Source: Clostridia bacterium (GTDB lineage: Bacteria; Bacillota; Clostridia; Christensenellales; Aristaeellaceae). Taken from it: a DNA stretch of 22,521 nucleotides. The DNA lies in NCBI GenBank assembly GCA_024404275.1, contig JAKSQG010000009.1, forward strand, positions 1 through 22,521, read 5' to 3'. The notes below the pieces were generated by a model, which was not told where the DNA came from, did not search any database, and was given only the letters and a program-made list of their open reading frames with translations. Position numbers and translations under genes: made by a program. This document shows, one piece after another, positions 1,219 to 22,521 of the stretch; within the stretch, counting starts at the first letter, position 1; each line of letters begins with the position of its first letter.

Positions 1219-2682
1219 GTGCCGCTTTGTTTGCTGTGTCTGTTTTTGATGTGCCTTGCGGTCTTGCTGCTCGTGCCGCATTCAAGAAAAGCCTCCGCCG
1301 GGCAGCGCGCCCGGGATGCTTCCGCGGGGCTCAGCCGTTATGATTATGAGCTGATTTTCCGTCCGGCAGAAAGCACACTGGCCGTCACCATGACGCTTGA
1401 TTACCGCAACGACACGGGCCATGTACTGCAAAGCCTGTGCGTCCGCCTTTGGGCCAACGCCTTTTCTGACGAGGCCTCAAGCCCCGCCGCCCTGTAGGAA
1501 TGGTATGACACCTGTTACCCGGAGGGTTTTTCCGCCGGCGGCTTCACTCCGCAGGGCATCTGGTGGAACGGCGCCGCCGTTTCCTGCACTCCGGAAACGC
1601 AGGATCCCACGGTGCTGAACATTCCCATTCCGCCGCTGTCCCCCGGAGAAAACGGCACACTGCTGCTGCGCGGAGTGCTCTCCCTGCCCCTGTGCGCCCA
1701 CCGCTTCGGACAGACGGCATATGGCGTGCAGATGATGCATGCGCTGCCCACGCTGTCGTTTTATCAGGACGGTGCCTGGCGTACAGACAGCTACAGCGCC
1801 ATCGGCGATCCCTTTATCAGCGGCTGCGCCAACTACACCGTCCATCTCAAAGCACCCACGGACTGGCAGCTGATCTGCGGCGGCAGCTGCGACAAGGCCG
1901 TGAATGCCGACGGAACCATTACCTATACCGTGCAATTGCCGGCTGCCCGTGATTTCAGCTTCGTGTTAAGCCGGGGTCTGGTTGCCGCTTCCGGGCAGGC
2001 TGACGGCATACAGGTCACTGTCTGGGCGCAGGAAAAAGCCGCGGCGCAGCGTGCTGTCCGGGATGCCGTCAAGGCGCTTCGCACCTATGCGGCGTTGTGG
2101 GGCGATTATCCTTACAGTCAGCTGGTGCTGTGCGAAGGCGCATTGCCCTTCAGCGCAGATACCGGCACCGCCTTCACCCTGATCGATCATACGTATTTTG
2201 CCTCCGACCGGGCGGAATCGCTGGAGCTGGTCATCGCCCACGAAACGGCGCACCAGTGGTTCGGCGTCATGGTAGCGTCTGACAGCGTCCGCCAGCCCTG
2301 GCAGGATGAAGCCTTGGCCGAATACGCCATGCTGCGCTACATCCTGAAAAACAGCGGTGCAGCTGCCTGGCGCAATCTGGTCACGCTGCGGGCCGACGCC
2401 CCGATGCGCGAATATATCCCTTTTCCCGTCACTCCCGCCTCTCCGATCGATTATTTCGGCAGCTATGACGTCTATTCCGCCGTGGTGATCGGGCGCGGCT
2501 GCGCCTGCCTGCTGGCGCTTGAAGAAATGTCCGGCAATCCGGATCCCTTCCTGCGCTCATATGCCGATACCTTCGCCTTCGGTTATGCCACACGGGCGGA
2601 TTTTGAATCGCTTCTCTTATCTGTCACCCAAACCGACCTTGCGCCCTTGATGACAGATTATTTGGATACACAAATGAATTGA
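1219..2682 (+). CDS. M1-family zinc metallopeptidase (gluzincin) with an N-terminal membrane anchor; one reading frame containing an in-frame TAG at 1495-1497
   Basis: ORFs 1219-1497 and 1612-2682 are in the same frame. Codons 1498-1611 are open and read EWYDTCYPEGFSAGGFTPQGIWWNGAAVSCTPETQDPT. The M1 N-terminal domain pattern (YDYELIFRP...LDYRNDTGHVLQSLCVRLWANAF) lies upstream of the TAG. HETAH (HExxH) is at 2239-2253, followed by WQDEALAEY, which supplies the third zinc ligand Glu. The stop is TGA. Confidence 0.75.
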
Positions 2683-4659: not shown

Positions 4660-4865
4660 CCAAAGAAAAAGTCGCCCGCATCAATGAGCTGGCCAGAAAG
4701 AAAAAGACCGTGGGGCTGACCCCCGCCGAACTGGAAGAGCAGGCAGCCCTGCGTCAGGAATATCTGGCCGATTTCCGCGCCGGTTTCCGTGAACAGCTGA
4801 ACAACACCTACATACAGTACGAGGACGGTCACAGGGAACGCCTGACCGAAAGGAAGCCTCAATGA
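4656..4865 (+). CDS. DUF896 (UPF0291/YnzC-like) small protein
   Basis: The 69-aa ORF contains KVARINELARKKKTVGLTPAELEEQAALRQEYLADFR, which matches the family signature. It has ATGA overlaps with both neighbouring genes. Confidence 0.8.
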   Translation: MTKEKVARINELARKKKTVGLTPAELEEQAALRQEYLADFRAGFREQLNNTYIQYEDGHRERLTERKPQ

Positions 4866-6354: not shown

Positions 6355-6784
6355 CCCGGTTTCCATGTTGGCACAGGGCAAACACCTGCGCAATATCCTC
6401 TGCGTTCAAAGCGATGCAGCCGGCTGTCCAGTCGCTGCCGCTGCCGCCTCCGTGGATACAGATCTCTCCGCCCAGGGCTGTGCCCCAGGGCGGTCTTTTT
6501 TGTTCCCGTTCACACTGACGGATATATTCCACCAGCTGCTCTTCCGCCCGCAGGCGCAGCGCATCGACAGAAGAAGGATAGCTGAGACCCAGAGACTGTC
6601 CGAATTTGCCGTGCTCCTTGCAAAGGCAGATATAATCCGCGCCCTCAGGCGTGCGCCCGTCTCCGGCACATTCCTTGCTGCCTTCCGGATGGTTCCCCAG
6701 AGCGATACGGCAGCAAAAAACAGCCGATCCGCTGTCATCCAGCACCGTCAGCTGTCTTAAATGTTTGATGATCTCGATTCTCAC
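6338..6784 (-). CDS. L,D-transpeptidase (YkuD/YafK-like) catalytic-domain protein
   Basis: The 148-aa ORF contains ICIHGGGSGSDWTAGCIALNAEDIAQVF, which fits the H-G...GC(I/V) active-site pattern. The stop is TAA. Its 3' end overlaps the convergent VanW gene by 17 nt. Confidence 0.65.
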   Translation of the reverse strand: MRIEIIKHLRQLTVLDDSGSAVFCCRIALGNHPEGSKECAGDGRTPEGADYICLCKEHGKFGQSLGLSYPSSVDALRLRAEEQLVEYIRQCEREQKRPPWGTALGGEICIHGGGSGSDWTAGCIALNAEDIAQVFALCQHGNRVTILP

Positions 6785-7519: not shown

Positions 7520-8396
7520 ACTTTGCGCGTACGTTCTCTCCGCCGAAGAAGAACAGAGCGATGGTACCGGGACCCACATGGCTGCCCGTCACCGGTTCAT
7601 AATCGACGGTCATGATCTCTTTGGGCGGATGGTTGCGGCGCAGCATTTCCGCCAGCTGCGCGGCTTCGGCTTCGCAATCGGCATGAGCGATGCACACGGT
7701 CTGTTCGCCCGGGTTGACCACCAGCTCATCATACTTCTGCGCCAAGGACTGAACGGCCTTTTTGCGTCCGCGCACAATGCCGAAGTTGACGATACGGCCC
7801 ATTTCATCGCCCTTGAGCAGGGGCTTGATGTTGAGCATGGAGGTGACAAAGGCCACTGCGCTGTGGAGGCGTCCCGTATGACTGAGGTATTTCAGATCAT
7901 CCACCGTGAACACCTGATAGATGTGCTGCACCCTGCTGCGCAGGAACTCCTCGTTATCGGCAATGGACATGCCCTGATCGCGGTTTTCCACAGCCAGCAT
8001 CACAAAAAGACCTTCGCCGAGGGAAGCGGCACGGGTATCGATGGAAACGATCTTCCGCTCCGGATACTTTTCCTTAAGTGCCTCTGCGGCGGTCATGGAA
8101 GAGTTATAGGAGCCGCTGATGCCGGAAGACATCGAAATGAACAGGATGTCCTGCCCCTGAGAGAGATACTTCTCAAAGCAATACTCAAACGTCTGCGGAT
8201 TGATCTGGGAGGTGGTCACCTTCATGCCCGCCCGCATATCGTCATAGAACTTTTTGCCGTCAAATACAGTGCTGTTAAGGCACTGCATCTCGACCCCCTC
8301 CACAAAATAGGAGAAGGGAGCGATATCCACGCCGTGCTCCATCAAGTAAGAGGAAGGTAAATTCGCCGAGGTATCGGTAATGATCTGATAGCTCAT
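7518..8396 (-). CDS. DegV family fatty-acid-binding protein
   Basis: The 292-aa ORF starts MSYQIITDTSANLP and contains TTSQINPQTF...FISMSSGISGSYNS and the C-terminal THVGPGTIALFF pattern typical of DegV. Confidence 0.9.
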   Translation of the reverse strand: MSYQIITDTSANLPSSYLMEHGVDIAPFSYFVEGVEMQCLNSTVFDGKKFYDDMRAGMKVTTSQINPQTFEYCFEKYLSQGQDILFISMSSGISGSYNSSMTAAEALKEKYPERKIVSIDTRAASLGEGLFVMLAVENRDQGMSIADNEEFLRSRVQHIYQVFTVDDLKYLSHTGRLHSAVAFVTSMLNIKPLLKGDEMGRIVNFGIVRGRKKAVQSLAQKYDELVVNPGEQTVCIAHADCEAEAAQLAEMLRRNHPPKEIMTVDYEPVTGSHVGPGTIALFFFGGENVRAK

Positions 8397-8420
8397 GTAT
8401 CTCTCCGATGCTGATCATTC

Positions 8421-8460
8421 AAAAAATGGAAAAAAAGCCGCTGCACCGGGCAGCGGCTTT
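8421..8460 (-). terminator. rho-independent terminator after rpmA
   Basis: On the minus strand, AAAGCCGCTGC-CCGGT-GCAGCGGCTTT is followed by TTTTTTCCATTTTTT. Confidence 0.85.
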
Positions 8461-8472
8461 GGGAGCATAAAA

Positions 8473-8757
8473 TTACTGCTCCTTGGGGTAGACACAAACC
8501 TGCTTCTTGTCGCGGCCCAGGCGCTCGAAACGCACGATACCGTCAGCCTTGGCGAACAGGGTATCATCCTTGCCGATGCCCACGTTCAGGCCGGGATTGA
8601 TATGGGTGCCGCGCTGGCGAACCAGAATGTTGCCGGCCAGCACGAACTGACCATCAGCGCGCTTCGCACCCAGACGCTTGCTTTCGCTGTCGCGGCCGTT
8701 GCGGGTAGAGCCCATACCTTTTTTATGAGCGAACAACTGAAGATTGAGTTTCATCAT
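8473..8757 (-). CDS. rpmA: 50S ribosomal protein L27 with a cleavable N-terminal extension
   Basis: [33 protein letters not shown]... matches L27. The prefix before the F-A cleavage site is the Prp substrate motif. Confidence 0.95.
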
Positions 8758-8778
8758 GGTAGCTTCCTCCGTTTTTAT

Positions 8779-9090
8779 TCACCGCACGGTGATGCGGATG
8801 TACTTGGAATAAGATTGACCGATATCCTGTATGCCTTGTTCAAAGGCTTTGAGCAGCACCACGGCGTCGTGGTTGGGTTGATCAAGATGTGCCTTTACAA
8901 GCCCATCCCCCGTTTCCAGTTCCGGCGTCTGCCCCGCCACGCTTTCCAAAGCGTTGACGCAGGTGGTTGCCAGCACGGAAACCGCCGCACAGACGATGTC
9001 GTGCCCTTCTTCGGCAAAACCGGCATGACCGCGGCACTCAAAACCGCAAGGCACACCGCCCTTGTCATGATACAGGATGACCCTGGTCAT
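8779..9090 (-). CDS. prp: ribosomal-processing cysteine protease Prp (YsxB family)
   Basis: The 103-aa ORF sits between rplU and rpmA. It contains GFECRGHAGFAEEGHDIVCAAVSVL, which carries the His/Cys dyad region. Its ATG overlaps the rplU TGA. Confidence 0.9.
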   Translation of the reverse strand: MTRVILYHDKGGVPCGFECRGHAGFAEEGHDIVCAAVSVLATTCVNALESVAGQTPELETGDGLVKAHLDQPNHDAVVLLKAFEQGIQDIGQSYSKYIRITVR

Positions 9091-9395
9091 CAGCCGTTGA
9101 TCGCGGTGATCTCGACCTTGGTAAAGGGCTGACGATGACCGGCCTTACGGCGGTAATTCTTCTTGCTCTTGTACTTGAGGATCAGGATCTTCTGGCCCTT
9201 GCCCTGCTGCAGAACCTTACCGGTAACGGTAGCGCCCTCGACAACGGGGTTGCCGACCTGAACGGTTTCACCGCCGAGCATCAGCACGGGGAAGGTGACT
9301 TCGTCGTTCACTTCGTTGTTCAGTTTCTCAACATAGATGACGTCTCCCTGAGAGACACGGTACTGTTTGCCGCCGGTAGCAATAATCGCGTACAT
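9090..9395 (-). CDS. rplU: 50S ribosomal protein L21
   Basis: [25 protein letters not shown]...[19 protein letters not shown] matches L21. Confidence 0.95.
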
Positions 9396-9497
9396 GATGG
9401 CAGCACCTCCTGTTTAGAACTCGCCGGGCTTCACAGGCATCTTTCAGCCACGAGGCAGCGCAGATGCGCATTTTAAAGGCCCCGCCCGAGCGGCTTA
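9396..9497 (-). ncRNA. 5' leader of the rplU operon, possibly an L21-leader-type autoregulatory RNA
   Basis: A structured GC-rich leader of about 100 nt lies between the predicted promoter and the rplU RBS (AGGAGG). Small hairpins include CCGC-UCGG-GCGG, GCGC-AUCU-GCGC and GCC-UCGU-GGC. I could not verify the covariance model by eye. Confidence 0.35.
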
Positions 9498-13686: not shown

Positions 13687-14499
13687 ATGCAGCTTTCACA
13701 TCCCATCGGGCCCTATCAGGGTCTGGATCCCCGCGATTGCTTTATCGTTTCCAATGACCAGCAGGTGCCGATGGGCACCGGCACGGTCATCAGCTTCATG
13801 CAGGGCGAAATGTATCCCGACGCCCCGCTGCGCATTTTTATCTCCATCGAGGCGCAGCCCGCTGCCCGCAGCCTGCTGCTCGGCGCACTGCTGGCACGTG
13901 CCGAGGAAAAGAGAGCCGAAGCCCCCGGTCTGCGCGCACGGCTGTATACCATTGTATCGCCGGAAGACGCCGACCTGCTCTCCTTCTACGAAAAAGCCGG
14001 TTTCAAGGCTGATGACACGCAGGACGTGTGGCATTTTGAACTGCCCGCCTGGTCCTCCCGTGTACCGGTCAGCTGCAATCTGCTGCCGGTCACGCTGCGC
14101 AGTCAGGAGGATGCCATGGCCTTCATGCAGCGCCTCAACACCTACCGCATTGAGATGCTGGACATGAACACCATGATCCGCTGCATGCAGATGGAACATT
14201 TCTGCGCCCTCGGCTTTTACCGCGGCGTGAATCCCGTCAGTGAGGTGCTTCTGGCCGGTCAGGGCGACTCTGTTTCCCTGGTAGGTCTGTATGTACGCGC
14301 CGATTACCGCCGTCAGGGCTTTGCCAAGGCCATCATCGGTGCCGCGGCCGAGCAGCTGCGCTCCCACGGGGTGGAACACATCTCCGCCAACATTTTCAGC
14401 AGCATTCCGGCGCAGACCGCTTTGATGCGTGCTGCCGCCGCCCGCAAGATCCGCACCGTCGCTGTCATGCCCGGTGCCGACCTGGAGCCCGATCAATAA
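13687..14499 (+). CDS. GNAT-fold acetyltransferase, apparently with two lobes
   Basis: The C-terminal lobe has VGLYVRADYRRQGFAKAIIGAAAEQL (motif A). The N-terminal lobe ends LLSFYEKAGF. Confidence 0.6.
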   Translation: MQLSHPIGPYQGLDPRDCFIVSNDQQVPMGTGTVISFMQGEMYPDAPLRIFISIEAQPAARSLLLGALLARAEEKRAEAPGLRARLYTIVSPEDADLLSFYEKAGFKADDTQDVWHFELPAWSSRVPVSCNLLPVTLRSQEDAMAFMQRLNTYRIEMLDMNTMIRCMQMEHFCALGFYRGVNPVSEVLLAGQGDSVSLVGLYVRADYRRQGFAKAIIGAAAEQLRSHGVEHISANIFSSIPAQTALMRAAAARKIRTVAVMPGADLEPDQ

Positions 14500-14518
14500 G
14501 AGTAAAAGAGGTATTGCT

Positions 14519-15211
14519 ATGACCATCGGCCTGCTTTGCGCGATGAAATCCGAGATTGAATCGGTCATCGCCCACCTGACCATTGAAAAAGAAACCGAGA
14601 TTGCCCGCACCACCGTGATGGAGGCGCACATCGGCGATCTTCATATCGTGGCCGCCGCCACCGGCATCTGCAAGGTGAACGCCGCCATTACCGCCCAGCT
14701 GCTCATCGACCGCTGGCAGGTGGAGCGCATCATCATGGTGGGCGTCGCCGGCGGCATGGATCCCCGTCTGGGCGTACACGCGCTGGCTTTCTCCGAGCGT
14801 CTTGCGCAGCACGATGTCGACCCCGGCATGCTGCGTCACCGTCCCACGCCCGATGCGGGCTATTTCCCCGGTGACGAGAAACTGTTGGACATCTGCCGCC
14901 GTCTGAACGAAGAAGGCAAGCTGCTCTACCCCGCCTTCTTCGGTACCATGGTCAGCGGTGAGCAGTTCATCGTGCAGGAGGGCCGTCAGCAGATCATCGA
15001 CGCGTGGCATCCCCTGTGCGTGGATATGGAATCCGCAGCCGCCGCCCATGCCTGCTATGCCAATGGCATCCCCTGCGTGGCCATCCGCGCCATGAGCGAT
15101 ACCGGTGACGAAAGCGGCATGGACTCCTTTGAACGCAACGAAGTCAGTGCCGCCGAAGCTGCTGCCGGTGCCGCCGCCGCATTGCTGGAAGCGCTGGCGC
15201 AGGAAAAATAA
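14519..15211 (+). CDS. mtnN: 5'-methylthioadenosine/S-adenosylhomocysteine nucleosidase
   Basis: The ATG at 14519, preceded by AAGAGG, is the likely start within ORF 14429-15211. The protein reads MTIGLLCAMKSEI...ATGICKVNAAITAQ...MVGVAGG...CVDMESAAAAH...AIRAMSD, which matches the Pfs/MtnN motifs. Confidence 0.85.
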   Translation: MTIGLLCAMKSEIESVIAHLTIEKETEIARTTVMEAHIGDLHIVAAATGICKVNAAITAQLLIDRWQVERIIMVGVAGGMDPRLGVHALAFSERLAQHDVDPGMLRHRPTPDAGYFPGDEKLLDICRRLNEEGKLLYPAFFGTMVSGEQFIVQEGRQQIIDAWHPLCVDMESAAAAHACYANGIPCVAIRAMSDTGDESGMDSFERNEVSAAEAAAGAAAALLEALAQEK

Positions 15212-15316: not shown

Positions 15317-15328
15317 GGGGGTGTGAAA

Positions 15329-17644
15329 TTACTTCACGAAGGTGGCAGCGGGAGTTTCAGCCAGCACGATGTCGCTGACCTTATCCAGCTGGACGGTGTA
15401 GGTGGCGCCGATCTCGATGGCATCCAGCAGAGCCTGAGCTTCTTCGAGGGAGCTCACGCGAGCGGTACGAACGATTTCGGTCCAGGCAGTGTCGGTGGGA
15501 CGGTTGGCAATTTCAACGGGGCCGCTGGTCCACTGCACAGCGTAGTTATCAGCGCCGTAGAAGTTGGTGTCATAGTCGACCTTGCCGGCGTAGTCATCCT
15601 TCACATGCCCGACGATCTGCACGAAGTAGCTGTCGGGATCATGCACGAAGGCATCCTTGGGAATAACGAAGCCGTTGGAGAGTTCGAAGCCATAGATGTT
15701 GAACATGCCGGCGAACTCTTCGGAGGGGTTCTGCCACATATCGAAGCCGTGCAGGATGCAGGCATCCAGAACTTCCAGCTCGTAGGTGCCTTCAGCACGC
15801 TTGTAGGGACCGTAGGCTTCGATGGTCTGCAGGGTCTTGGAGGAAGCGGAGGAGCGGAAGCCGCCATGCTCGAAGAACAGGTCGCCGACAGCATCCTTCT
15901 CGTTTACCCAATCCTGGAAGAAGCTCTCATAGGTGTTGTAGGAGATGCGCTTCTCGCAGAAGTTCTGGATAGCATCCAGACCTTCGGTCAGCACGGACAG
16001 GAAGGGGATGTTCTTCTCTTCGCAGGCCTTGTCGATATCGTACCCGGGATCCTGGTTGGAGTGCTGGGGTACGTTGCACACGTAGTCAGCGGAAGCGGCA
16101 GCCATGGGGGCGGCAACGCTCTGGATGTACTTCAGGCCGTCAACATAGGCCAGACGGGTCCAACCGGACTTCAGGTTGTTCTGAGCGCCGTAGCCGCCCA
16201 TGTAGCAGAAGGCAGCGGTCTTGCCGGCTTCCAGCACCTTGTCGTTTTCGGTAGCGGTGAGACGGAACACGAAGGAAGCGGTATCAGCGGTGTGGCCGGT
16301 GGTCAGGAAGGGATACACTTCAACGCCGCCGCCGAAGTCATTCTGCCACTCATACCAGTTGTCCCAGGCGGTCAGGGTGTAGGCAACAGACTTGTCGGTC
16401 AGAACCGGGCCGATTTCCGGATAGCCCAGATAGTCGAAGCCGCCCTTGTTGTTGCTGGAGGTCTGCACAGCGGCATACTGCTCGCCGTAGGCAATGTTGC
16501 CCTGACCAACCTGATAGTGGTTGATCATGGTCAGGTTCTCGACCAGAGCCTGATAATGGTCGCCGTGGCCATGGGTCAGCAGGATCTTATCCACTTCACG
16601 GGGATCGAAGCCCAAGGCTTCCAGGTTCAGCCAGTACTGGTAAGAGGCGCAGGTGTTGCCCTGGTCCAGCAGGGTCATGGTGCCATCATCGCCCAGGAAC
16701 AGATAGATGTTAGTGTAGGAATCGCCGATGGAGTAGAAGCGGTCAGCCATCACTTCGAAGGGGATGCAGGAACCGTCGAAGCCGTAGGAGTGCTTTTCCT
16801 TGGCAGCGGACACTTCAGGCATCCAGCCCACGCCATCATAGGTGGTGTTGTCGGGGGTGACCAGCTTGCTGGCAGCCAGCACTTCGGGGTTCTTGTAGAC
16901 ATACAGCTGAGCGACCTTGGCGGTCTCGTAGGTGGTGTAGTCGCCGTCGAACACAGCGATCACAACGTACTTCTCGGGCTGGTAGTAGATCTCGCCGTCT
17001 TCGCCCACGGGGCAGACAACGATCTCTTCCAGGGTGGTGGGTTCGGCAGCCCAGCTGCCGGTCACCAGGGTGCCTTCGACGGTGGTGGTGTTATCCACGG
17101 CGAAGATCTGGCAGTCATCGGCCAGGGTATAGGTCTCTTCGAAGATGTTGGTGCAGTGGTTGCCATCGCCCACGGTGGTGGTGCGGGCATCGGCATCGGT
17201 GGCCAGCACCCAGGCCTGAGCCATCATGGCGCCGGGCTTGCCGCCCTCGCCGGTCAGCTCAACGCCGTACTTGGCGGAGTCCATGAAACCGATGCTGGGG
17301 CCGAAGCCGCCGGCCATCTGCATCAGGCGCTCGATGTTGATGATGTTGCCTTCGGCATCCATCACGAGCTCGATGCTGTTGTTGGCCTGGCACAGGGCTA
17401 CCACGGCTTCAGCGCGGGTAACGCCGGTCAGGGCATTGGTCTGGGTCAGGGGAACGGTGGTGACGGTCTTCTTCTCGAAGGTACCGGCTTCGACGATCTC
17501 GACGGTCACGCAGCCGTTTTCATCCACCGTGGCGGGGGTGACGACCCAGCCCCAGGTGCTGGAGGCGGGCACGGATTCCGCGACAGCCAGGGCGGCGACG
17601 CAGATCAGCAGCACGCACAGGAGGATAGAAGCGATCTTCTTCAT
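15329..17644 (-). CDS. secreted multidomain MBL-fold metallo-hydrolase (771 aa)
   Basis: It has a signal peptide (MKKIASILLCVLLICVAALAVAES). The central motif LLTHGHGDH fits HxHxDH, with a later TTGHTADT. About 330 aa N-terminal and about 250 aa C-terminal have no motif I recognise. The stop is TAA and a GAGAGG RBS lies upstream. Confidence 0.8.
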   Translation of the reverse strand: MKKIASILLCVLLICVAALAVAESVPASSTWGWVVTPATVDENGCVTVEIVEAGTFEKKTVTTVPLTQTNALTGVTRAEAVVALCQANNSIELVMDAEGNIINIERLMQMAGGFGPSIGFMDSAKYGVELTGEGGKPGAMMAQAWVLATDADARTTTVGDGNHCTNIFEETYTLADDCQIFAVDNTTTVEGTLVTGSWAAEPTTLEEIVVCPVGEDGEIYYQPEKYVVIAVFDGDYTTYETAKVAQLYVYKNPEVLAASKLVTPDNTTYDGVGWMPEVSAAKEKHSYGFDGSCIPFEVMADRFYSIGDSYTNIYLFLGDDGTMTLLDQGNTCASYQYWLNLEALGFDPREVDKILLTHGHGDHYQALVENLTMINHYQVGQGNIAYGEQYAAVQTSSNNKGGFDYLGYPEIGPVLTDKSVAYTLTAWDNWYEWQNDFGGGVEVYPFLTTGHTADTASFVFRLTATENDKVLEAGKTAAFCYMGGYGAQNNLKSGWTRLAYVDGLKYIQSVAAPMAAASADYVCNVPQHSNQDPGYDIDKACEEKNIPFLSVLTEGLDAIQNFCEKRISYNTYESFFQDWVNEKDAVGDLFFEHGGFRSSASSKTLQTIEAYGPYKRAEGTYELEVLDACILHGFDMWQNPSEEFAGMFNIYGFELSNGFVIPKDAFVHDPDSYFVQIVGHVKDDYAGKVDYDTNFYGADNYAVQWTSGPVEIANRPTDTAWTEIVRTARVSSLEEAQALLDAIEIGATYTVQLDKVSDIVLAETPAATFVK

Positions 17645-17770
17645 GGTGTATTCCTCTCTCTCAAATATTTCCGGCTCATTCTTCCTTTTCAGGCATCAGC
17701 ATCGGCCGTTCATGCTGAACTTGTTTTTCGTTCCCGGTTCGATCCCGAAAACGTCACTGCAATACTAACA

Positions 17771-17785
17771 GCGAAAAGCGTGCCA
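17771..17785 (-). promoter_or_regulatory. sigma-54 (-24/-12) promoter driving the MBL-fold gene
   Basis: The minus strand reads TGGCACGCTTTTCGC, compared with the consensus TGGCACG-N4-TTGC. The GG-N10-GC spacing is exact and there is one mismatch in the -12 element. It lies about 125 nt upstream of the ATG at 17644. Confidence 0.7.
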
Positions 17786-17961
17786 AAATATGGATACCGG
17801 CAAAAAATTTTTCCCAACCCTATTTTTCAGCATCCATCTTTCATGACCTGCATGCAATTGAAAACGAATGAAATGAAATTGATTCGTGCTGCAACCTTCG
17901 GACCTCCTGCCGTTTTCGGATATACATTCCCCAATTCCATTCTGTTGTTCCAATGTAATGT

Positions 17962-17985
17962 CTGTCAAAAGCTCCTTCCTGACAG
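17962..17985. promoter_or_regulatory. inverted repeat CTGTCA-N12-TGACAG, a candidate activator (UAS) site
   Basis: The arms are a perfect 6 bp. The repeat lies about 180-200 bp upstream of the minus-strand sigma-54 promoter. Confidence 0.3.
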
Positions 17986-17996
17986 GTATTTGCGTT

Positions 17997-18017
17997 CTTT
18001 TCAACATGTTTCCATTT
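17997..18017. promoter_or_regulatory. candidate UAS motif copy B (TTTTCAACATGTTTCCATTT)
   Basis: It nearly matches 20359-20376 upstream of the second sigma-54 promoter. The core AACATGTT is palindromic. Confidence 0.35.
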
Positions 18018-18110
18018 CGTACCGTATGAAACCATCTGAAACCTATTGGGACATTTTGAACATTTTGAACACCATATGTCTATTATCAACAGCTTTGATT
18101 GAAACAAAAT

Positions 18111-18151
18111 AAAAGGAAAGCAAAACCATGACCGGTTTTTGCCTTCCTTTT
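18111..18151 (-). terminator. probable terminator after the sigma-54 activator gene
   Basis: A long imperfect hairpin pairs 18111-18127 with 18134-18151. On the minus strand it is followed by ATTTTGTTTC. Confidence 0.5.
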
Positions 18152-18238
18152 CGTATTCAAACGGGTTCAAAATACGGTTTTATCACCCATTGTCTTTCTC
18201 TGCAGCAAATGATAGTTTCAAAAGCGTGCAGTGCGCTT

Positions 18239-20158
18239 TCATTCAATTCCATACTCCCGGATTTTTCGCCACAGGGTGGTTTTGCTCAAGCCCAGCATAT
18301 CCGCCGCCTCTTTCTTGGTCTTGGCGATCAGAAGTGTATCCATGATCTTCTGGCGTTCCTTATCGCGCAGGGAGATGGTCGGAACCGCAGCGACCTGCTC
18401 TTCCTGAGGAGCCTCCTTCTGCGGGAGTACATTTTTCACATCGCCGAGGGTAATAAAGGTAGTGGAGCACAGCACCGCCAGCTGCTCGGAAACATTGCGC
18501 AGCTCACGCAGATTGCCCGGCCAGGGATAGCGCCCGATCAGGGTGGCGGCGTCCGGAGACAGACGGATCTATGTTTTACCGAATTTGGCCGCATAATAAT
18601 TGAGATAATGCTGCATGATGAGTGCTGCATCGCCGTCCCTGCGGCGCAGCGGAGGCAGATTGATGGAAAGCACCTTCAGACGATAATACAGATCCTCGCG
18701 AAATTTGTTTTCCGCGATCAGCTGCGTCAGATCCTTGTTGGTGGCGCAGATGATGCGCACATCCACATCGATCACCTTATCGCTGCCGATACGGCGCACT
18801 TCGCGTTCCTGAATGATGCGCAGCAGACGGGTCTGCATCTCCAGCGGGATCTCACTGATCTCATCAAGGAAAATGGTGCCGGTGTGCGCCGACTCAAAAA
18901 AGCCTGCTTTGCCGTTTTTGTTGGCGCCTGTGAAGGCGCCGCCCACATAACCGAACAGCTCGCTTTCAAACAGCGAGGGAGAAATGGCCGCACAGTTGAC
19001 CGCCACAAACGGTCTGTCGGCACGCTCGCTTTCGTTGTGGATGGACTGCGCTACCAGCTCCTTGCCGGTACCTGTCTCGCCAAAGAGCAGGATATTGGAA
19101 TCCACCTTCGCGTACTGACGAGCCTGATGGATCATATCCTGCAAAACAGTACTTTCACCCAGAATATCCCTGAAATGATACTTGGCCTTGTTGGATTTTT
19201 CGTTGCGGACCGTGGGCATATTTCCGCTGACCACATTGCTTTCACGCACCTTGCGCATGGTGATAACGGTGCCCAGCTGACGGTCGGCATCAGTCATGCT
19301 GCTGCCGCTCATGCGGATGTATTCCCCGCCGATGCGCACGACTTCATCATGAAAGGGCTTGTTATAGCTGAGAAGATTCAGCAGATTGCCTTCCGGCAGC
19401 ACTTTTTCGGTCGGACGACCGATCATTTCACTGCTCTTGCGGCCCAGCAGCATTTCCGCCACCGGATTGAAGGCACGCACAATACCGTTCTGGTCGACGG
19501 CGATGACACCGTCGCTGACGTGATTCAGCACCGCACGGTTTGTTGCGGATGATTCGCGCTCCGCCAAAAAGACCTGTGCGCAGCGTTTGGCCTCCGTAAT
19601 GGCCAGAAAGATCGATTCCGCGGAGGAGATCAGTAAGCCGCTGGGCACGCCATACTCCTTGGCAAATTCCATGGTATGATAGCCGCCGATGATCATTTTT
19701 GCGCCGTTCTGAACGGCTTCCCGTACGCCCTCACGCAGGCTGTCCCGGACAATATCCGGTGTGGTAAACGCCATGACCGGAAAGGGATATTCCGCCCCGA
19801 GATAATCCACGCAGCAGGTCATGTTGGCGGTACCGACCACGCCGATGGCCATATCCCCGTAGCGTTCGACCGCCTGACGGATGGAGATGCGCAGATCGTT
19901 TGCGGTGATCGGAATCTCAACAATAGGCGTCATCGGGTTCTGATTGCGGATCGTAGAGGCTGTGCCGCCGCGGCTGACGACCACATCCGCCTTGAAATGC
20001 TTGGCCAGAATAATGGTCGGCGAGACCTCGCATTCCACGGTATAACGATAATCCAGCCCGTACAGATTGGGTCCGAAGACCTCATTATGCATGGACCAAG
20101 CCTGTTTGACAAAGGGGATCATCGTAGGGGACGGCAGCGCAAAGTCAATGTGAACCAT
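18239..20158 (-). CDS. sigma-54-dependent transcriptional activator (PrpR_N - PAS - AAA+ - Fis-type HTH); one frame containing an in-frame TAG at 18569-18571
   Basis: ORFs 18569-20158 and 18239-18475 share one frame, and the codons between them are open. The read-through sequence is ...YYAAKFGKT[TAG]IRLSPDAATLIGRYPWPGNLRELRNVSEQLAVLC...KKEAADMLGLSKTTLWRKIREYGIE. It has Walker A GETGTGKE, the GAFTGA loop, Walker B FLDEI and the R-finger region. The WPGN(V/L)REL and HTH segments lie after the TAG. The stop is TGA. Confidence 0.85.
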
Positions 20159-20358
20159 GTTTTTTCCTCCAGAACCGACGCGGCATTCCTTTTCGCCTGA
20201 AAAGGGTGTTTCCTCATTCTCTATGCAAATCCCGTGCCATCTTCATTCCATTATGTTTCAAAAATATTCAAGTTTTGGAAGTCTTCAGCCGGCACGCCGC
20301 ATCCAATGCCGTGGCAGGATGATTATACCGTTTTTTTGATTCAAATAATAGCATTTTA

Positions 20359-20376
20359 TTTCAACTTGTTTCATTT
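20359..20376. promoter_or_regulatory. candidate UAS motif copy A (TTTCAACTTGTTTCATTT)
   Basis: It lies about 90 bp upstream of the plus-strand sigma-54 promoter and matches 17997-18017 with one substitution and one indel. Confidence 0.35.
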
Positions 20377-20462
20377 AAGCAAAGAGGGTGTGCAGGAGAA
20401 AAAGACATTGATTCTTCTTCCTATTAAAAAAAATGGTCAGCAGCATCCTTTCGTCAACTGTT

Positions 20463-20478
20463 TGGCACATTTTTTGCA
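20463..20478 (+). promoter_or_regulatory. sigma-54 (-24/-12) promoter driving the membrane-protein/MoxR operon
   Basis: TGGCACATTTTTTGCA matches TGGCAC-N5-TTGCA exactly, with GG-N10-GC spacing. It lies about 107 nt upstream of the GTG at 20585 and is divergent from the activator gene. Confidence 0.75.
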
Positions 20479-20523
20479 GATAATCTCAGTGGAGTATATT
20501 GTTTCCCGAAAATTGAAGATCCT

Positions 20524-20545
20524 GCATCCCGTTTTTGCGGGATGC
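20524..20545 (+). other. 8-bp GC-rich hairpin in the 5' UTR of the sigma-54-dependent operon
   Basis: GCATCCCG-TTTTTG-CGGGATGC. No U-tract follows, so it is not a terminator. Confidence 0.3.
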
Positions 20546-20584
20546 TGTCCTGCCCCATCCTCTGCATAGAAGGAGGCCGATCGG

Positions 20585-21991
20585 GTGATAAAAGAACTGA
20601 TTCCCTTTCAAAAGCGTCTGAACCGGCAGGCATTGCTGCGTAGTACAGCGCTTGCCGCCGCCATCGGAGCTGGCACTGCCGCCTGCGTGCTGCTCGTTTA
20701 TCGGCTACTGACCGATACCCGCAGTCCCATCCTGCCGCTCATCGCAGGTACAGCCGCGGCGCTGATCGCATTCTTGATTTTTTATCTGTTTGTGTTCCGT
20801 GCGAATGAAAAAAAGACCGCCGCGTATCTTGACCGTCAGGGATTGCAATAGCGTGTGCTGACCATGGTCACGAATCAATCTCTGAATGACCCCATCAGTC
20901 AGCTGCAGCGGCAGGATGCCCTGCGCCATATCGCGAAGCTCTCCCCCCGCGACATCAAAGTGAAAGCACCCGTGAAAAGTCTGATTGCACTGCTGTGCAT
21001 CGTTGTGCTGATCACGCCGCTTGCGATCATTCCCGGACCGTATCTGACTTTGAACAACGGTGAGGATGCCGCACTGCGGCGCTCGCAGGAAGCGCAGCTG
21101 GTCGATCAGCTGCTGGAAGACCTGCGCCGCCGCATTGAAGAATCCTCCCTCAGTGAGGAAAGGCGGCAGGAGCTGCTCGCCTGGCTGGACAGTCTGTCCG
21201 GTGATGCGCAGATCGATATGAAGCAGCTGGCGGATATCATCGCGCAGGCGCAGCAGATGGAAGAACACATCGCCAACGAGGAATCCTACGGCGCGGTGAT
21301 GGCATAGATGCTGGCGCAGCCGCACTTTGCAGGTTTGGCCAAAGCCATCCTCAACGCCGACATCGACGAGATGAACACCTACTTTGATGAGCTGGAAGCC
21401 AGTCTTGTTGTGCTGGAGCAGGAGCCGCTGTGCGCCGAGCTGATGGAGATCCGCAATGAAGCGATGGCCATCAACGCCCGCGCGTAGGAAGACGAAGGTG
21501 ACACCTCCGTCACCGGCGCCTTCAATACGCTGGCCAGCGGTTTCTATCTGGCATCCATCGGCGGCTTTTCCCACGAGGATACCGTTCAGCTGGTACATGA
21601 GGACCTGTTCCAGTGCCGCCTGACCATTCTGGGTATGCTGCAGGCGATGAGCTCATCGGGTAACGGCAGTGTGGACCGTGAACGTGCACAGACCGATGTA
21701 TCCGTCAAGCAGGAGACACACGAAGAAAACGGCACTGCCGCCGGCAAGACGGAACAGGACGAAAACGGCATCCTCAGCGGCGGCATTGACGGCATTGCCT
21801 CGGAAAGTCTGGGCGCAGCCATCCGTTTCAATCAGCCCGATGAGATGATGTGGGATCCCGACCGCAAGGAGACCCTTCCCTACCGTGAGGTATACGGCAA
21901 GTATTACCTGCAATTGCTCGAAGGCATGGAGAACGGTCTGTGGGACGAAAACACCTATGACGAGATCAACCGTTATTTTAATGGATTGTAA
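20585..21991 (+). CDS. membrane-anchored coiled-coil protein of unknown function; one frame with three in-frame TAGs (20849, 21305, 21485)
   Basis: ORFs 20585-20851, 20855-21307, the 59-codon stretch 21308-21484 and ORF 21635-21991 are all in the same frame and separated only by TAG. An AGGAGG RBS lies 8 nt before the GTG at 20585. There are three predicted TM helices followed by charged helical repeats. The final stop is TAA. It sits immediately upstream of the MoxR ATPase gene. Confidence 0.6.
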
Positions 21992-22017
21992 TCAGTAAAG
22001 AAGAAAAGCAGGAGGAT

Positions 22018-22521
22018 ATGAACATGACCAACGAAGCGGATATCCTGCGTTTCGGCGAATATTGCCGCAGCGCTATCGAAGAGATCGGCAAGGACATCGT
22101 AGGCCAGAAGGATGTTGTGGAAGGCGTTGTGACCGCCATGATCGCCGGCGGCAACGTGCTGCTGGAGGGTGTTCCCGGTACCGGCAAGACCCGTCTGATC
22201 CGCTCTGTCGGTCAGACCTTCGGCCTCAGCTTTTCCCGTATCCAGTTTACCCCCGATATGATGCCCGCTGATGTGACCGGCGTGCAGGTGCTGGAAAAGA
22301 AGGCCGACGGTACCGCCGCCTTCCGCTTCCAGCCCGGTCCCGTATTTGCCAACATCGTGCTGGCGGATGAGATCAACCGCGCAACGCCCAAGACGCAGTC
22401 GGCTTTGCTGCAGGCCATGGAAGAGCACCGCTTCAGCGTAGGCGGCACCGACCACATTCTGGAGGAGCCCTTCTTTGTTCTGGCGACCCAGAACCCCATT
22501 GAGCAGGAAGGTACCTATCCC
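22018..22521 (+). CDS. MoxR-family AAA+ ATPase, 3' end beyond the window
   Basis: My translation reads [63 protein letters not shown]...[14 protein letters not shown]...[30 protein letters not shown]...[17 protein letters not shown]. It has Walker A, Walker B and the MoxR-specific motifs. Given the GGAGG spacing, the ATG at 22024 may be the true start. Confidence 0.9.

What the first reader, a model, noticed from the sequence alone, without database searches (positions are those of the whole stretch)
18239..20158. A sigma-54 activator is split by a single TAG just before its WPGNxREL and HTH segments
The upstream 529 codons carry PrpR_N, PAS and most of the AAA+ sigma-54 interaction module (GETGTGKE, GAFTGA, FLDEI). 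The next codon after ...YYAAKFGKT is TAG. The same frame then reads IRLSPDAATLIGRYPWPGNLRELRNVSEQ..., which is the conserved end of the AAA+ module, followed by a Fis-type HTH (AADMLGLSKTTLWRKIREYGIE) and a TGA stop. A protein truncated at the TAG would lack DNA binding. Even so, two well-preserved sigma-54 promoters flank the gene, which argues that the regulator is functional and the TAG is translated. This is the cleanest single piece of evidence for TAG decoding in the window.
Basis: seen in the sequence. Interest (0 to 1): 0.8.

Follow-up and report, generated by a model that had tools for sequence, protein, structure and literature searches.

The report
Bacterium reads TAG stop as glutamate
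The TAG that seems to cut this sigma-54 regulator in two is almost certainly translated, because this small group of uncultured gut-type Clostridia carries in-frame TAGs in many healthy genes exactly where relatives encode glutamate and never ends a gene with TAG; that would be the first natural bacterial reassignment of the amber stop codon.

Summary
On the minus strand (20158..18239) a PrpR_N-PAS-AAA+-HTH_8 sigma-54 activator has one in-frame TAG at codon 530 (18569-18571), inside the AAA+ lid domain.

- A second strain (96% DNA identity) keeps the same TAG. Since the two strains split, the downstream codons changed 7 times synonymously and once non-synonymously.
- The sister species (84-90% identity) has an intact 639-codon gene with GAG (Glu) at that position.
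- 14,435 codon pairs were aligned between the two species. 14 in-frame TAGs face a sense codon: Glu x10, Gln x2, Asp x1, Lys x1. No TAA or TGA faces a sense codon.
- An empirical likelihood favours Glu by about 14 orders of magnitude over any other standard amino acid.
- No genuine stop is TAG: 0 of 22 genes in the window and 0 of 62 in the sister species, against 4 of 44 in outgroups.
- No recoding RNA structure follows the TAG.

The best reading is lineage-wide decoding of UAG as glutamate. The tRNA(CUA) and the status of release factor 1 could not be examined. Papers up to August 2026 list only UGA reassignments in bacteria.

The parts
18239..20158 (-). Sigma-54-dependent activator (bEBP): 639 sense positions if TAG is read through, then a TGA stop. 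Domains are PrpR_N, PAS, AAA+ (Walker A GETGTGKE, GAFTGA loop, Walker B FLDEI), AAA lid and HTH_8.
   Evidence: 119 full-length orthologs. Intact 639-aa ortholog in the sister species, 90.7% aa identity.
18569..18571 (-). In-frame TAG, codon 530, inside the AAA+ lid domain. It faces GAG (Glu) in the sister species and is conserved as TAG in a second strain.
18239..18568 (-). The 109 codons after the TAG plus the TGA stop: C-terminal part of the AAA+ lid (WPGNLREL) and the Fis-type HTH.
   Evidence: Pfam AAA_lid_14 4e-13 and HTH_8 9e-9. Ka/Ks 0.107 against the sister species. 7 synonymous and 1 non-synonymous change against the strain that shares the TAG. No unusual RNA fold (z = -0.37).
20224..20239 (-). 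Perfect sigma-54 promoter TGGCACGGGATTTGCA, upstream of the activator's own start codon (20158).
   Evidence: Conserved in the sister species and in L038.
20463..20478 (+). Perfect sigma-54 promoter TGGCACATTTTTTGCA, upstream of the divergent operon (membrane protein, MoxR, DUF58, BatA, VWA).
   Evidence: Identical in the sister species and in L038. Operon content.
17770..17785 (-). Sigma-54-like promoter with one mismatch (TGGCACGCTTTTCGCT), about 125 nt upstream of the MBL-fold gene.
   Evidence: Conserved in the sister species within otherwise diverged intergenic DNA.
20585..21991 (+). Clade-specific membrane/coiled-coil protein (468 codons) with three in-frame TAGs at 20849-20851, 21305-21307 and 21485-21487. 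All three face Glu codons (GAA, GAG, GAA) in the sister species and are conserved as TAG in L038.
1219..2682 (+). M1-family peptidase (HExxH) with an in-frame TAG at 1495-1497, which faces GAT (Asp) in the sister species.
15329..17644 (-). 771-aa metallo-beta-lactamase-fold protein, intact in the window. Its codon 381 (CAG, window 16502-16504) is TAG in the sister species, where the gene was therefore called as 380 + 379 aa.
22021..22521 (+). 5' part of the MoxR-type AAA+ ATPase gene, second gene of the operon driven by the sigma-54 promoter at 20463. It runs off the window.

Best explanation
The activator gene is intact. In this lineage UAG is a sense codon, most likely for glutamate, so the gene yields a 639-residue PrpR_N-PAS-AAA+-HTH enhancer-binding protein with Glu at position 530.

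Shown here:
- In-frame TAGs occur in many otherwise intact genes of at least three lineages of the clade.
- They persist between strains while the codons after them stay under purifying selection.
- They face Glu codons in orthologs far more often than chance or one-step mutation would give.
- TAA and TGA never behave this way.
- TAG ends no gene in about 105 kb of clade sequence.

Inferred, not seen:
- A tRNA with anticodon CUA is charged with Glu. It probably derives from tRNA-Glu(CUC or UUC) and is accepted by a GluRS tolerant of A36.
- Release factor 1 is lost or no longer reads UAG, so RF2 ends all genes at UAA or UGA. This would mirror the RF2 loss seen in UGA-reassigning bacteria.
- The activator probably drives the conserved sigma-54 promoters of its own gene, of the divergent membrane-protein/MoxR/DUF58/BatA/VWA operon and of the neighbouring MBL-fold gene.
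For: TAG position and domains. All 119 orthologs run through the site. The sister species GCA_045599485.1 has an intact 639-aa gene with GAG at codon 530. An independent ENA assembly (L038, 95.9% nt identity) keeps this TAG and the three TAGs of the neighbouring gene. Since the strains split, changes after the activator TAG are 7 synonymous and 1 non-synonymous. Ka/Ks of the tail against the sister species is 0.107 at Ks 0.86. Clade-wide, 14,435 aligned codon pairs contain 14 TAG-versus-sense sites with partners E10, Q2, D1, K1. log10 likelihoods are Glu -8.4, Asp -22.3, Gln -22.7, Lys -28.0. No TAA or TGA faces a sense codon. Within one species, GntR codon 211 is TAG in one strain and GAG in five others. 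Genuine stops: window 12 TGA + 10 TAA + 0 TAG; sister species 0 TAG of 62; outgroups 4 TAG of 44. The TAGs share no context and no RNA structure follows the activator TAG. The sequences come from four or more independent data sets: two NCBI MAGs, one ENA assembly and several Logan runs.
Against: Neither the decoding tRNA nor the presence or absence of prfA could be checked. No tRNA gene lies in any of the roughly 130 kb examined. There is no protein-level evidence. TAG is rare: 5 TAG against 436 GAR codons in the window. None of the 14 sites is shared between the two species, although 74% of Glu-Glu pairs keep the same codon. So TAG codons are young or short-lived, which also fits inefficient or partial decoding. 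The lack of TAG stops is only modestly significant on its own (Fisher p = 0.025). Two Gln partners are more than a pure Glu model predicts, although CAG to TAG is a single transition.
Confidence: 0.78

Rival explanations
1. Ambiguous or leaky amber. RF1 is still present and UAG is still formally a stop, but a Glu-inserting suppressor tRNA (or efficient near-cognate reading) lets part of the ribosomes read through. TAG-bearing genes then give a mix of truncated and full-length products, and TAG codons are mildly harmful and short-lived.
For: TAG is rare, about 1% of Glu codons. No TAG site is shared between the two species even though 74% of Glu codons are unchanged. The GAG/TAG polymorphism within one species looks like recent turnover. 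Pyl-using methanogens with ambiguous amber usage are a precedent (PMC12626013, listed).
Against: No genuine TAG terminator among 22 + 62 genes. Four of four TAGs are kept across 4% nucleotide divergence with selection maintained downstream. One 468-codon gene carries three TAGs, which would leave little full-length product if read-through were inefficient.
Confidence: 0.13
2. UAG encodes glutamine, as in genetic code 15 of some phages, or a Glu/Gln mixture. This could arise through a tRNA-Gln-derived CUA suppressor that a non-discriminating GluRS charges with Glu and GatCAB then amidates fully or partly.
For: Gln is the commonest residue at the activator's TAG column in distant orthologs (41 of 119). 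Two of 14 close partners are CAG. Making a tRNA-Gln(CUG) into a CUA suppressor needs only one base change (general knowledge of supE-type suppressors).
Against: Ten of 14 close partners are Glu codons, six of them GAA, which is two steps from TAG. The likelihood for Gln is about 14 orders of magnitude below that for Glu.
Confidence: 0.05
3. Pseudogene. A recent nonsense mutation truncated the activator to 529 residues without DNA binding, and the other TAGs are likewise inactivating mutations in a decaying genome.
For: NCBI annotates the product as a 529-aa protein. CAG or GAG to TAG needs only one base change.
Against: The TAG predates the split of two strains, and the tail still evolves with 7 synonymous changes to 1 non-synonymous. 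All 14 in-frame stops are TAG, with no TAA, no TGA and no frameshift in 14,435 codon pairs. Partner codons are not the mix expected from one-step nonsense mutation (no Tyr, Trp, Ser or Leu; six are GAA, two steps from TAG). The affected genes are otherwise 84-98% conserved.
Confidence: 0.02
4. UAG encodes pyrrolysine or another non-standard residue, as in archaeal genetic code 34.
For: Pyl is the only known natural amino acid that prokaryotic cells insert at UAG. Genome-wide use exists in archaea (10.1101/2024.09.30.615893).
Against: The partners are acidic or amide residues, not Lys-like or random. No methylamine methyltransferase or pyl gene occurs in about 105 kb of clade sequence. No PYLIS-like fold was found. 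The Code 34 authors state that it is not observed in bacteria.
Confidence: 0.015
5. Sequencing or assembly error: the T of TAG is a miscalled base.
For: The window comes from a metagenome-assembled genome, and a single-base error would be enough.
Against: The same four TAGs occur in an independent ENA assembly of another strain. Other TAGs occur in a second NCBI MAG and in Logan assemblies of other runs. Six partner codons are GAA, which differs from TAG at two bases.
Confidence: 0.005

Closest known systems
UGA reassignment in bacteria (genetic codes 4 and 25: Mycoplasmatales, several endosymbionts, Eggerthellaceae, Absconditabacteria/Gracilibacteria)
   Same: In both, a stop codon is used as a sense codon across a whole bacterial lineage. 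Both are recognised by in-frame stops in conserved genes, by a consistent amino acid in aligned orthologs, and by that codon no longer ending genes. The expected machinery is a mirror image: a cognate suppressor tRNA plus loss of the one release factor that reads the codon.
   Different: The codon here is UAG, not UGA. The amino acid is Glu, not Trp or Gly. The factor expected to be lost is RF1, not RF2. The genome is about 57% GC and shows no sign of reduction in the sampled regions, whereas most code-4 lineages are AT-rich and reduced (PMC13462651). The Codetta paper (PMC8629427, 2021) states that all known bacterial stop reassignments involve UGA, and the 2026 papers read describe none involving UAG.
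TAG to Gln recoding in crAss-like, Lak and other phages (genetic code 15)
   Same: In-frame TAG codons are decoded as a standard, chemically similar amino acid in genomes from similar gut-type habitats. Suppressor tRNA(CUA) genes are the usual mechanism.
   Different: The present sequences are bacterial chromosomal DNA carrying ribosomal proteins L21 and L27, MurE-type ligase, Ddl, HisRS, FTHFS, RNase J and lgt. The aligned residue is Glu, not Gln. TAGs are spread over housekeeping and accessory genes rather than concentrated in late phage genes.
Genome-wide UAG to pyrrolysine in archaea (genetic code 34, Kivenson et al., bioRxiv 10.1101/2024.09.30.615893)
   Same: This is the only described genome-wide UAG sense decoding in cellular prokaryotes. 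As here, it does not lower coding density much and is therefore missed by standard pipelines (gTranslate preprint).
   Different: It occurs in archaea, depends on the Pyl machinery and inserts a 22nd amino acid. Here the aligned residues indicate standard Glu, and no Pyl-related gene was seen in the sampled DNA.
UAR to Glu nuclear codes of peritrich ciliates and Blastocrithidia (codes 30 and 31)
   Same: The same amino acid (Glu) is assigned to UAG.
   Different: Those are eukaryotic nuclear genomes in which UAA changes together with UAG and eRF1 is altered. Here UAA remains a frequent terminator (10 of 22 genes in the window).
Engineered RF1-free, amber-free E. coli (for example C321.deltaA and related strains)
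   Same: The inferred state is the same: no UAG terminators, RF2 alone ends translation, and UAG is free to be assigned to an amino acid through a CUA tRNA.
   Different: Those strains are man-made and the present case would be natural. Whether RF1 is actually absent here is not known.
NtrC/PrpR-type sigma-54 enhancer-binding proteins (for example ZraR 1ojl, Aquifex NtrC4 4l4u)
   Same: The AAA+ sigma-54 interaction module, GAFTGA loop, lid domain and C-terminal Fis-type HTH are shared. The match to ZraR has E = 2e-71 over residues equivalent to 330-636. The N-terminal PrpR_N plus PAS arrangement matches PrpR-type regulators.
   Different: The signal it senses is unknown. The regulon suggested by the promoters (MoxR/BatA/VWA operon and an MBL-fold protein) differs from the context of 52%-identical orthologs, which sit beside rpoN, TctABC and LarA-type genes. 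The gene carries a TAG-encoded residue.

Membership tests
Sigma-54-dependent enhancer-binding protein (bEBP) | AAA+ sigma-54 interaction domain with Walker A, Walker B and the GAFTGA loop | tested here: met
   Sigma54_activat 332-499, E = 7e-71. GETGTGKE, FLDEI and GAFTGA can be read in the translation.
Sigma-54-dependent enhancer-binding protein (bEBP) | C-terminal DNA-binding HTH (Fis type) on the same polypeptide | tested here: met
   HTH_8 at 597-636 in the same frame after the TAG. It is on one polypeptide in 119 orthologs and in the sister species. This holds only if the TAG is translated.
Sigma-54-dependent enhancer-binding protein (bEBP) | Sigma-54 (-24 GG / -12 GC) promoters at target genes | tested here: met
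   Two perfect TGGCAC-N5-TTGCA sites and one one-mismatch site next to the gene, conserved in the sister species. Across the whole window, the count of matches with up to 2 mismatches is not above chance (12 found, 17 expected), so the weight rests on the perfect matches, their conservation and their position.
Sigma-54-dependent enhancer-binding protein (bEBP) | rpoN (sigma-54) present in the genome | not testable with these tools
   rpoN is not in the window or in the 69 kb of the sister contig. Other contigs of the MAGs could not be reached.
Lineage-wide stop-codon reassignment (alternative genetic code) | The codon occurs in frame in many conserved, otherwise intact genes | tested here: met
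   There are 18 in-frame TAGs in 15 genes across three lineages: 14 with an aligned partner and 4 without (FGGY kinase and three in an HTH gene). Only about 105 kb of the clade's genomes was sampled, not whole genomes.
Lineage-wide stop-codon reassignment (alternative genetic code) | One consistent amino acid at aligned positions in orthologs | tested here: met
   Partners are E10, Q2, D1, K1. Glu is favoured by about 14 log10 units.
Lineage-wide stop-codon reassignment (alternative genetic code) | The codon is no longer used as a terminator | tested here: met
   0 of 22 genes (window) and 0 of 62 (sister species) end in TAG, against 4 of 44 in outgroups. Fisher p = 0.025, so this is supportive but modest on its own.
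Lineage-wide stop-codon reassignment (alternative genetic code) | Sequence downstream of the codon stays under purifying selection after the codon arose | tested here: met
   Window versus L038, which share the TAGs: 7 synonymous and 1 non-synonymous change after the activator TAG, and 27 synonymous and 10 non-synonymous after the first TAG of the membrane-protein gene.
Lineage-wide stop-codon reassignment (alternative genetic code) | Cognate tRNA with the matching anticodon (CUA) | not testable with these tools
   ARAGORN found no tRNA gene in the window or in any clade locus. The remaining contigs of both MAGs were out of reach.
Lineage-wide stop-codon reassignment (alternative genetic code) | Loss or alteration of the release factor that reads the codon (RF1, prfA) | not testable with these tools
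   No release-factor gene lies in the sampled DNA, and whole-genome absence cannot be assessed here.
Pyrrolysine decoding (Pyl; genetic code 34) | pylT, pylS and pylBCD genes, and TAG in methylamine methyltransferase genes | tested here: inconclusive
   None were seen in about 105 kb of clade sequence, but the genomes were not fully searched.
Pyrrolysine decoding (Pyl; genetic code 34) | Aligned residues not specific to one standard amino acid | tested here: not met
   The partners are overwhelmingly Glu. That pattern is expected if a standard amino acid is encoded, not Pyl.
Phage-type TAG to Gln recoding (genetic code 15) | Phage genome context and Gln at aligned positions | tested here: not met
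   The context is chromosomal (L21/L27, lgt, Ddl, HisRS, RNase J). Gln is the partner at 2 of 14 sites.
Pseudogene by nonsense mutation | Relaxed selection downstream, a mix of stop types and frameshifts, and one-step mutational partners | tested here: not met
   Selection downstream is strongly purifying. Only TAG occurs in frame and there are no frameshifts. Six partners are GAA, two steps from TAG.

The most novel reading that the evidence does not exclude
This clade of uncultured Clostridia (GCA_024500545.1, GCA_045599485.1 and strains in several public read sets) uses a genetic code not yet described, in which UAG encodes glutamate and only UAA and UGA terminate. It would be the first natural amber-codon reassignment in cellular bacteria, presumably with a tRNA-Glu(CUA) and without functional RF1, and so a natural counterpart of engineered RF1-free E. 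coli.
Probability: 0.7. Interest if true: 0.92.

Novelty: new variant of a known kind. Interest (0 to 1): 0.86.

Why it matters
Every natural stop-codon reassignment accepted so far in bacteria involves UGA. UAG reassignment is known only from phages, organelles, eukaryotic nuclei and, with pyrrolysine, archaea.

A free-living-type, GC-rich bacterium that reads UAG as Glu would matter in several ways:
- It would add a new bacterial genetic code.
- It would show that loss of RF1-dependent termination can evolve naturally.
- It would supply a natural Glu-inserting amber tRNA/GluRS pair of interest for genetic-code engineering.
- It would expose a systematic annotation error. Standard table-11 pipelines truncate or split these genes: the activator is deposited as 529 aa, and the sister species has 8 split or shortened genes in 69 kb.

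It also bears on phage-host biology, because TAG-recoded phages and an amber-decoding host would be mutually compatible. For the gene in question, it means the sigma-54 regulator and its apparent MoxR/BatA/VWA regulon should be treated as functional.

Tried and rejected
- tRNA search. ARAGORN found no tRNA in the window or in clade loci L001, L002, L038, L042, L043 and L047-L049 (L060 and the other loci were not scanned), so the decoding tRNA could not be identified.
- Rfam. No family reached threshold in the window.
- Recoding signal. The 129 nt around and after the activator TAG fold no better than shuffles (z = -0.37). The 17 TAG contexts compiled share no motif.
- More clade members. A GTDB scan found only the sister species. 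A JGI/ENA scan with the clade-specific membrane protein found nothing, and a scan with the 484-aa protein found only relatives 54-55% identical. The RNase J search shows a 3-member cluster and then a gap to 79% identity.
- Distant-homolog columns. The activator column is variable (Gln 41, His 13, Asn 12...). PDB homologs show Val at the activator site and Lys at the ribulokinase site. At about 50% identity these columns do not help identify the amino acid, so I relied on orthologs 84-98% identical.
- Crude longest-ORF caller as a stop-usage control. It picks antisense shadow ORFs in this GC-rich DNA and is noisy. I used database gene calls instead.
- First window annotation. The plus-strand ORFs at 8395-9476 are not genes. 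The real genes are L21, Prp and L27 on the minus strand, shown by synteny; the tallies were redone.
- An internal restart for a separate C-terminal protein was rejected. The first in-frame start after the TAG is a GTG 31 codons downstream (ORF 18239-18475), which would remove the WPGNLREL motif.
- Literature. Eight full-text searches and five papers read turned up no report of bacterial UAG reassignment.
Full report
OBSERVATION. The feature is real and lies on the minus strand. Reading 20158 down to 18239 gives ATG, 529 sense codons ending ...YYAAKFGKT, TAG (window 18569-18571), 109 further sense codons (IRLSPDAATLIGRYPWPGNLRELRNVSEQ...AADMLGLSKTTLWRKIREYGIE) and TGA. Pfam on the read-through protein finds PrpR_N (55-197), PAS (208-300), Sigma54_activat (332-499, E = 7e-71), AAA_lid_14 (505-588) and HTH_8 (597-636). 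The lid domain spans the TAG, and the 109-residue tail on its own still matches AAA_lid_14 (4e-13) and HTH_8 (9e-9). The window is essentially a whole 22,522-bp contig of the NCBI MAG GCA_024500545.1 ('Clostridia bacterium'), in which the gene is deposited as a truncated 529-aa protein, MCQ2453198.1.

ORTHOLOGS. All 119 orthologs retrieved (about 50-54% identity) are single proteins of about 637 aa that continue through this position. The aligned column is variable, with Gln the commonest residue at 41 of 119. On its own that fits either a CAG-to-TAG nonsense mutation or translation of the TAG.

THE REST OF THE WINDOW. The activator is not the only case in the window.
- An M1-family peptidase (1219-2682, plus strand) has an in-frame TAG at 1495-1497.
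- The gene divergent from the activator (20585-21991, plus strand, a membrane/coiled-coil protein ahead of a MoxR ATPase) has three, at 20849, 21305 and 21485.
- After the annotation was corrected by synteny, the 22 complete genes of the window end in TGA (12) or TAA (10), never TAG.

A SISTER SPECIES. The membrane protein has a single database homolog (84% identical, uninterrupted). It led to a 109-kb contig of a second MAG, GCA_045599485.1, contig JAZRWA010000086.1. That contig is collinear with the window at 84-90% nucleotide identity.
- Its activator is an intact 639-codon ORF with GAG (Glu) where the window has TAG.
- The three TAGs of the membrane-protein gene face GAA, GAG and GAA.
- The peptidase TAG faces GAT.
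- Conversely, the sister species has its own in-frame TAG in the MBL-fold gene, which was therefore called as 380 + 379 aa. The window has CAG there in an intact 771-codon ORF.

A SECOND STRAIN AND THE SELECTION TEST. An independent ENA assembly (ERZ27247129, locus L038, 95.9% nucleotide identity to window 18429-22521) carries all four TAGs at the same codons. The TAGs therefore predate the split of the two strains, so substitutions since then test whether the downstream codons are still translated.
- After the activator TAG (codons 531-576) there are 7 synonymous changes and 1 non-synonymous.
- After the first TAG of the membrane-protein gene there are 27 synonymous and 10 non-synonymous.
- Against the sister species the activator tail has Ka/Ks 0.107 at Ks 0.86, compared with 0.057 for the part before the TAG.
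This rules out a sequencing error and a recent pseudogene.

MORE SEQUENCE FROM THE CLADE. Exact cluster look-ups allowed a walk along 69 kb of the sister contig (loci L001, L002, L039, L040, L048, L049). They also recovered two contigs of a further lineage close to the window species (Logan run SRR27361835: L047, 13.8 kb, and L060, 10.5 kb) and five short conspecific contigs. Every TAG 'stop' among the sister species' gene calls turned out to be internal to a gene split in the same frame:
- the MBL-fold gene, alpha-amylase (233 + 342 aa) and an FGGY/ribulokinase (302 + 244 aa);
- an Iso_dh-family gene and a phosphodiesterase;
- endonuclease III, whose start had been called too far downstream because of a TAG at codon 16;
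- an AT-rich HTH gene with three TAGs.
Genuine stops in the sister species are 0 TAG of 62. Gene calls of two outgroup loci give 4 TAG of 44 (Fisher p = 0.025).

WHICH AMINO ACID. I aligned all genes codon by codon between the window-species group and the sister species: 14,435 codon pairs.
- 14 sites have TAG in one genome and a sense codon in the other. The partners are Glu x10 (GAA x6, GAG x4), Gln x2 (CAG), Asp x1 and Lys x1.
- In the same alignment no TAA or TGA ever faces a sense codon.
- From the empirical residue-pairing frequencies of these alignments, the log10 likelihood of the 14 partners is -8.4 if TAG is Glu, -22.3 for Asp, -22.7 for Gln and -28.0 for Lys.
- For the first 13 sites, the chance that at least 10 partners are Glu, given its background frequency of 7.1%, is about 8e-10.
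- Six partners are GAA, two mutational steps from TAG. No partner is Tyr, Trp, Ser or Leu, which argues against plain nonsense mutation.
- Within one species, GntR codon 211 is TAG in one strain and GAG in five others.
- The Gln and Lys partners are single-step neighbours of TAG (CAG, AAG) and common exchange partners of Glu.

NO LOCAL RECODING SIGNAL. The RNA after the activator TAG folds no better than shuffled sequence (z = -0.37). The 17 TAG contexts compiled share no motif. Rfam finds nothing in the window.

MECHANISM.
Shown: UAG occurs in frame in many intact genes of at least three lineages. It is maintained with selection downstream, it is equivalent to Glu in orthologs, and it does not end any gene in the sample.
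Inferred from how the known reassignments work (PMC13462651): a tRNA with anticodon CUA is charged with Glu, and RF1 is lost or inactive, so RF2 ends every gene at UAA or UGA. That matches the exclusive use of those two stops.
Not examined: no tRNA gene lies in any locus, and the other contigs of the MAGs were out of reach.

AN OPEN POINT. TAG accounts for only about 1% of Glu codons (5 against 436 GAR in the window). None of the 14 sites is shared between the two species, although 661 of 888 Glu-Glu pairs keep the same codon. TAG codons are therefore young or short-lived. Either the reassignment happened shortly before the species split, or decoding is somewhat costly. The second possibility keeps an 'ambiguous or leaky amber' variant alive as the main rival.

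THE REGULATOR ITSELF. With Glu530 it is an ordinary full-length bEBP. Its best PDB matches are ZraR and NtrC-family proteins (E about 1e-70), and the TAG column falls in a variable stretch of the lid domain.
- Two perfect sigma-54 promoters lie in the 426-bp divergent intergenic region. One faces the activator gene (20224-20239, minus strand). The other faces the membrane-protein/MoxR/DUF58/BatA/VWA operon (20463-20478, plus strand).
- A one-mismatch site (17770-17785, minus strand) precedes the MBL-fold gene.
- All three are conserved in the sister species within otherwise diverged spacer DNA.
That the activator controls these three units is an inference from position. Orthologs about 52% identical elsewhere sit in a different context, beside rpoN, TctABC and Lar_N genes.

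COMPARISON WITH WHAT IS KNOWN. The Codetta screen of more than 250,000 genomes states that all known bacterial changes reassign UGA (PMC8629427). The 2026 papers on Eggerthellaceae and on 4-bp anticodon-stem tRNAs, and the gTranslate preprint, likewise report no bacterial UAG reassignment. The Code 34 preprint describes genome-wide UAG to Pyl in archaea only and remarks that it is not observed in bacteria. Eight full-text searches found no report of UAG to Glu in bacteria. The case is therefore a new variant of a known kind of system, a stop-codon reassignment. Its nearest analogues are bacterial codes 4 and 25 (a different codon and release factor), phage code 15 (Gln, in phage genomes), archaeal code 34 (Pyl) and eukaryotic codes 30 and 31 (UAR to Glu).

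VERDICT.
- Confidence that the TAG is translated: about 0.9.
- Confidence that the residue is Glu: about 0.8.
- Confidence that this is a complete lineage-wide reassignment with RF1 loss: about 0.6-0.7, pending the tRNA and prfA checks.

Noticed in passing
window 20585-21991 (+); TAGs at 20849-20851, 21305-21307, 21485-21487: The gene divergent from the activator (a membrane/coiled-coil protein with no Pfam family and only one database homolog) carries three in-frame TAGs. All three face Glu codons in the sister species and are conserved in a second strain. A fourth TAG at 20567-20569 lies upstream of the start codon, in the leader.
   Followed up: yes
window 1219-2682 (+); TAG at 1495-1497: An M1-family peptidase with a signal-like N-terminus has an in-frame TAG that faces GAT (Asp) in the sister species. 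A table-11 ORF call would start it at 1612 and lose about 130 residues.
   Followed up: yes
all clade loci (window, L047, L060 against the sister contig): None of the 14 TAG sites is shared between the two species, although 74% of Glu-Glu codon pairs are identical. By contrast, 4 of 4 are shared between strains 96% identical. TAG codons therefore look young or short-lived, which is not explained.
   Followed up: partly
L047 3839-3841 against L042-L046 (GntR codon 211): There is a polymorphism within one species: one strain has TAG, five others have GAG, and the sister species has GAA. The TAG strain's gene was called 15 residues short (210 against 225 aa).
   Followed up: yes
L048 10001-10741 (sister species; same gene at L039 19887 onward): A low-GC stretch (38% against 58%) holds an XRE-like HTH gene of about 247 codons with three in-frame TAGs. 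Its first 78 residues are 100% identical to a protein of the window's MAG on another contig. It may be a shared mobile element that also uses TAG as a sense codon.
   Followed up: partly
L039 9890-10525 (sister species endonuclease III, HhH-GPD): The annotated start is 37 codons too far downstream because of a TAG at codon 16. The N-terminal extension is clearly coding and 35 of 37 residues match the other lineage, where the codon is AAG.
   Followed up: yes
window 8395-9476 (+) against 8473-9395 (-): The long plus-strand ORFs here (245 and 113 aa, no Pfam hit) are not genes. Synteny shows the real genes are the L21 - Prp protease - L27 operon on the minus strand. Likewise YkuD (6338-6784, minus strand) and DUF896 (4656-4865, plus strand) were missed at first.
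   Followed up: yes
window 15323-18112 (+): A 929-codon ORF with no family match lies antisense to the MBL-fold gene (15329-17644, minus strand) and runs on through the intergenic region. It appears to be a shadow ORF of GC-rich DNA rather than a gene.
   Followed up: partly
window 18105-18155: An imperfect inverted repeat (AAAGGAAAGCAAAACC ... GGTTTTTGCCTTCCTTTT) flanked by T-runs on both strands sits just downstream of the activator's TGA. It looks like a bidirectional terminator, but the simple terminator scan did not list it.
   Followed up: no
L041 4639-5925 and neighbours (Ca. Limiplasma-type contig): Orthologs of the activator about 52% identical lie beside rpoN, TctABC transporter genes, a Lar_N gene and a 2-hydroxyacid dehydrogenase. 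The MoxR/BatA/VWA context in the window is therefore specific to this clade.
   Followed up: no
window 14429-15211 (+) against L001 3931-4620: The longest ORF for the purine nucleoside phosphorylase gene starts at a GTG that overlaps the preceding GNAT gene by 71 nt. The sister species' call starts 31 codons later at an ATG, so the shorter form (start near 14522) is probably the real one.
   Followed up: no
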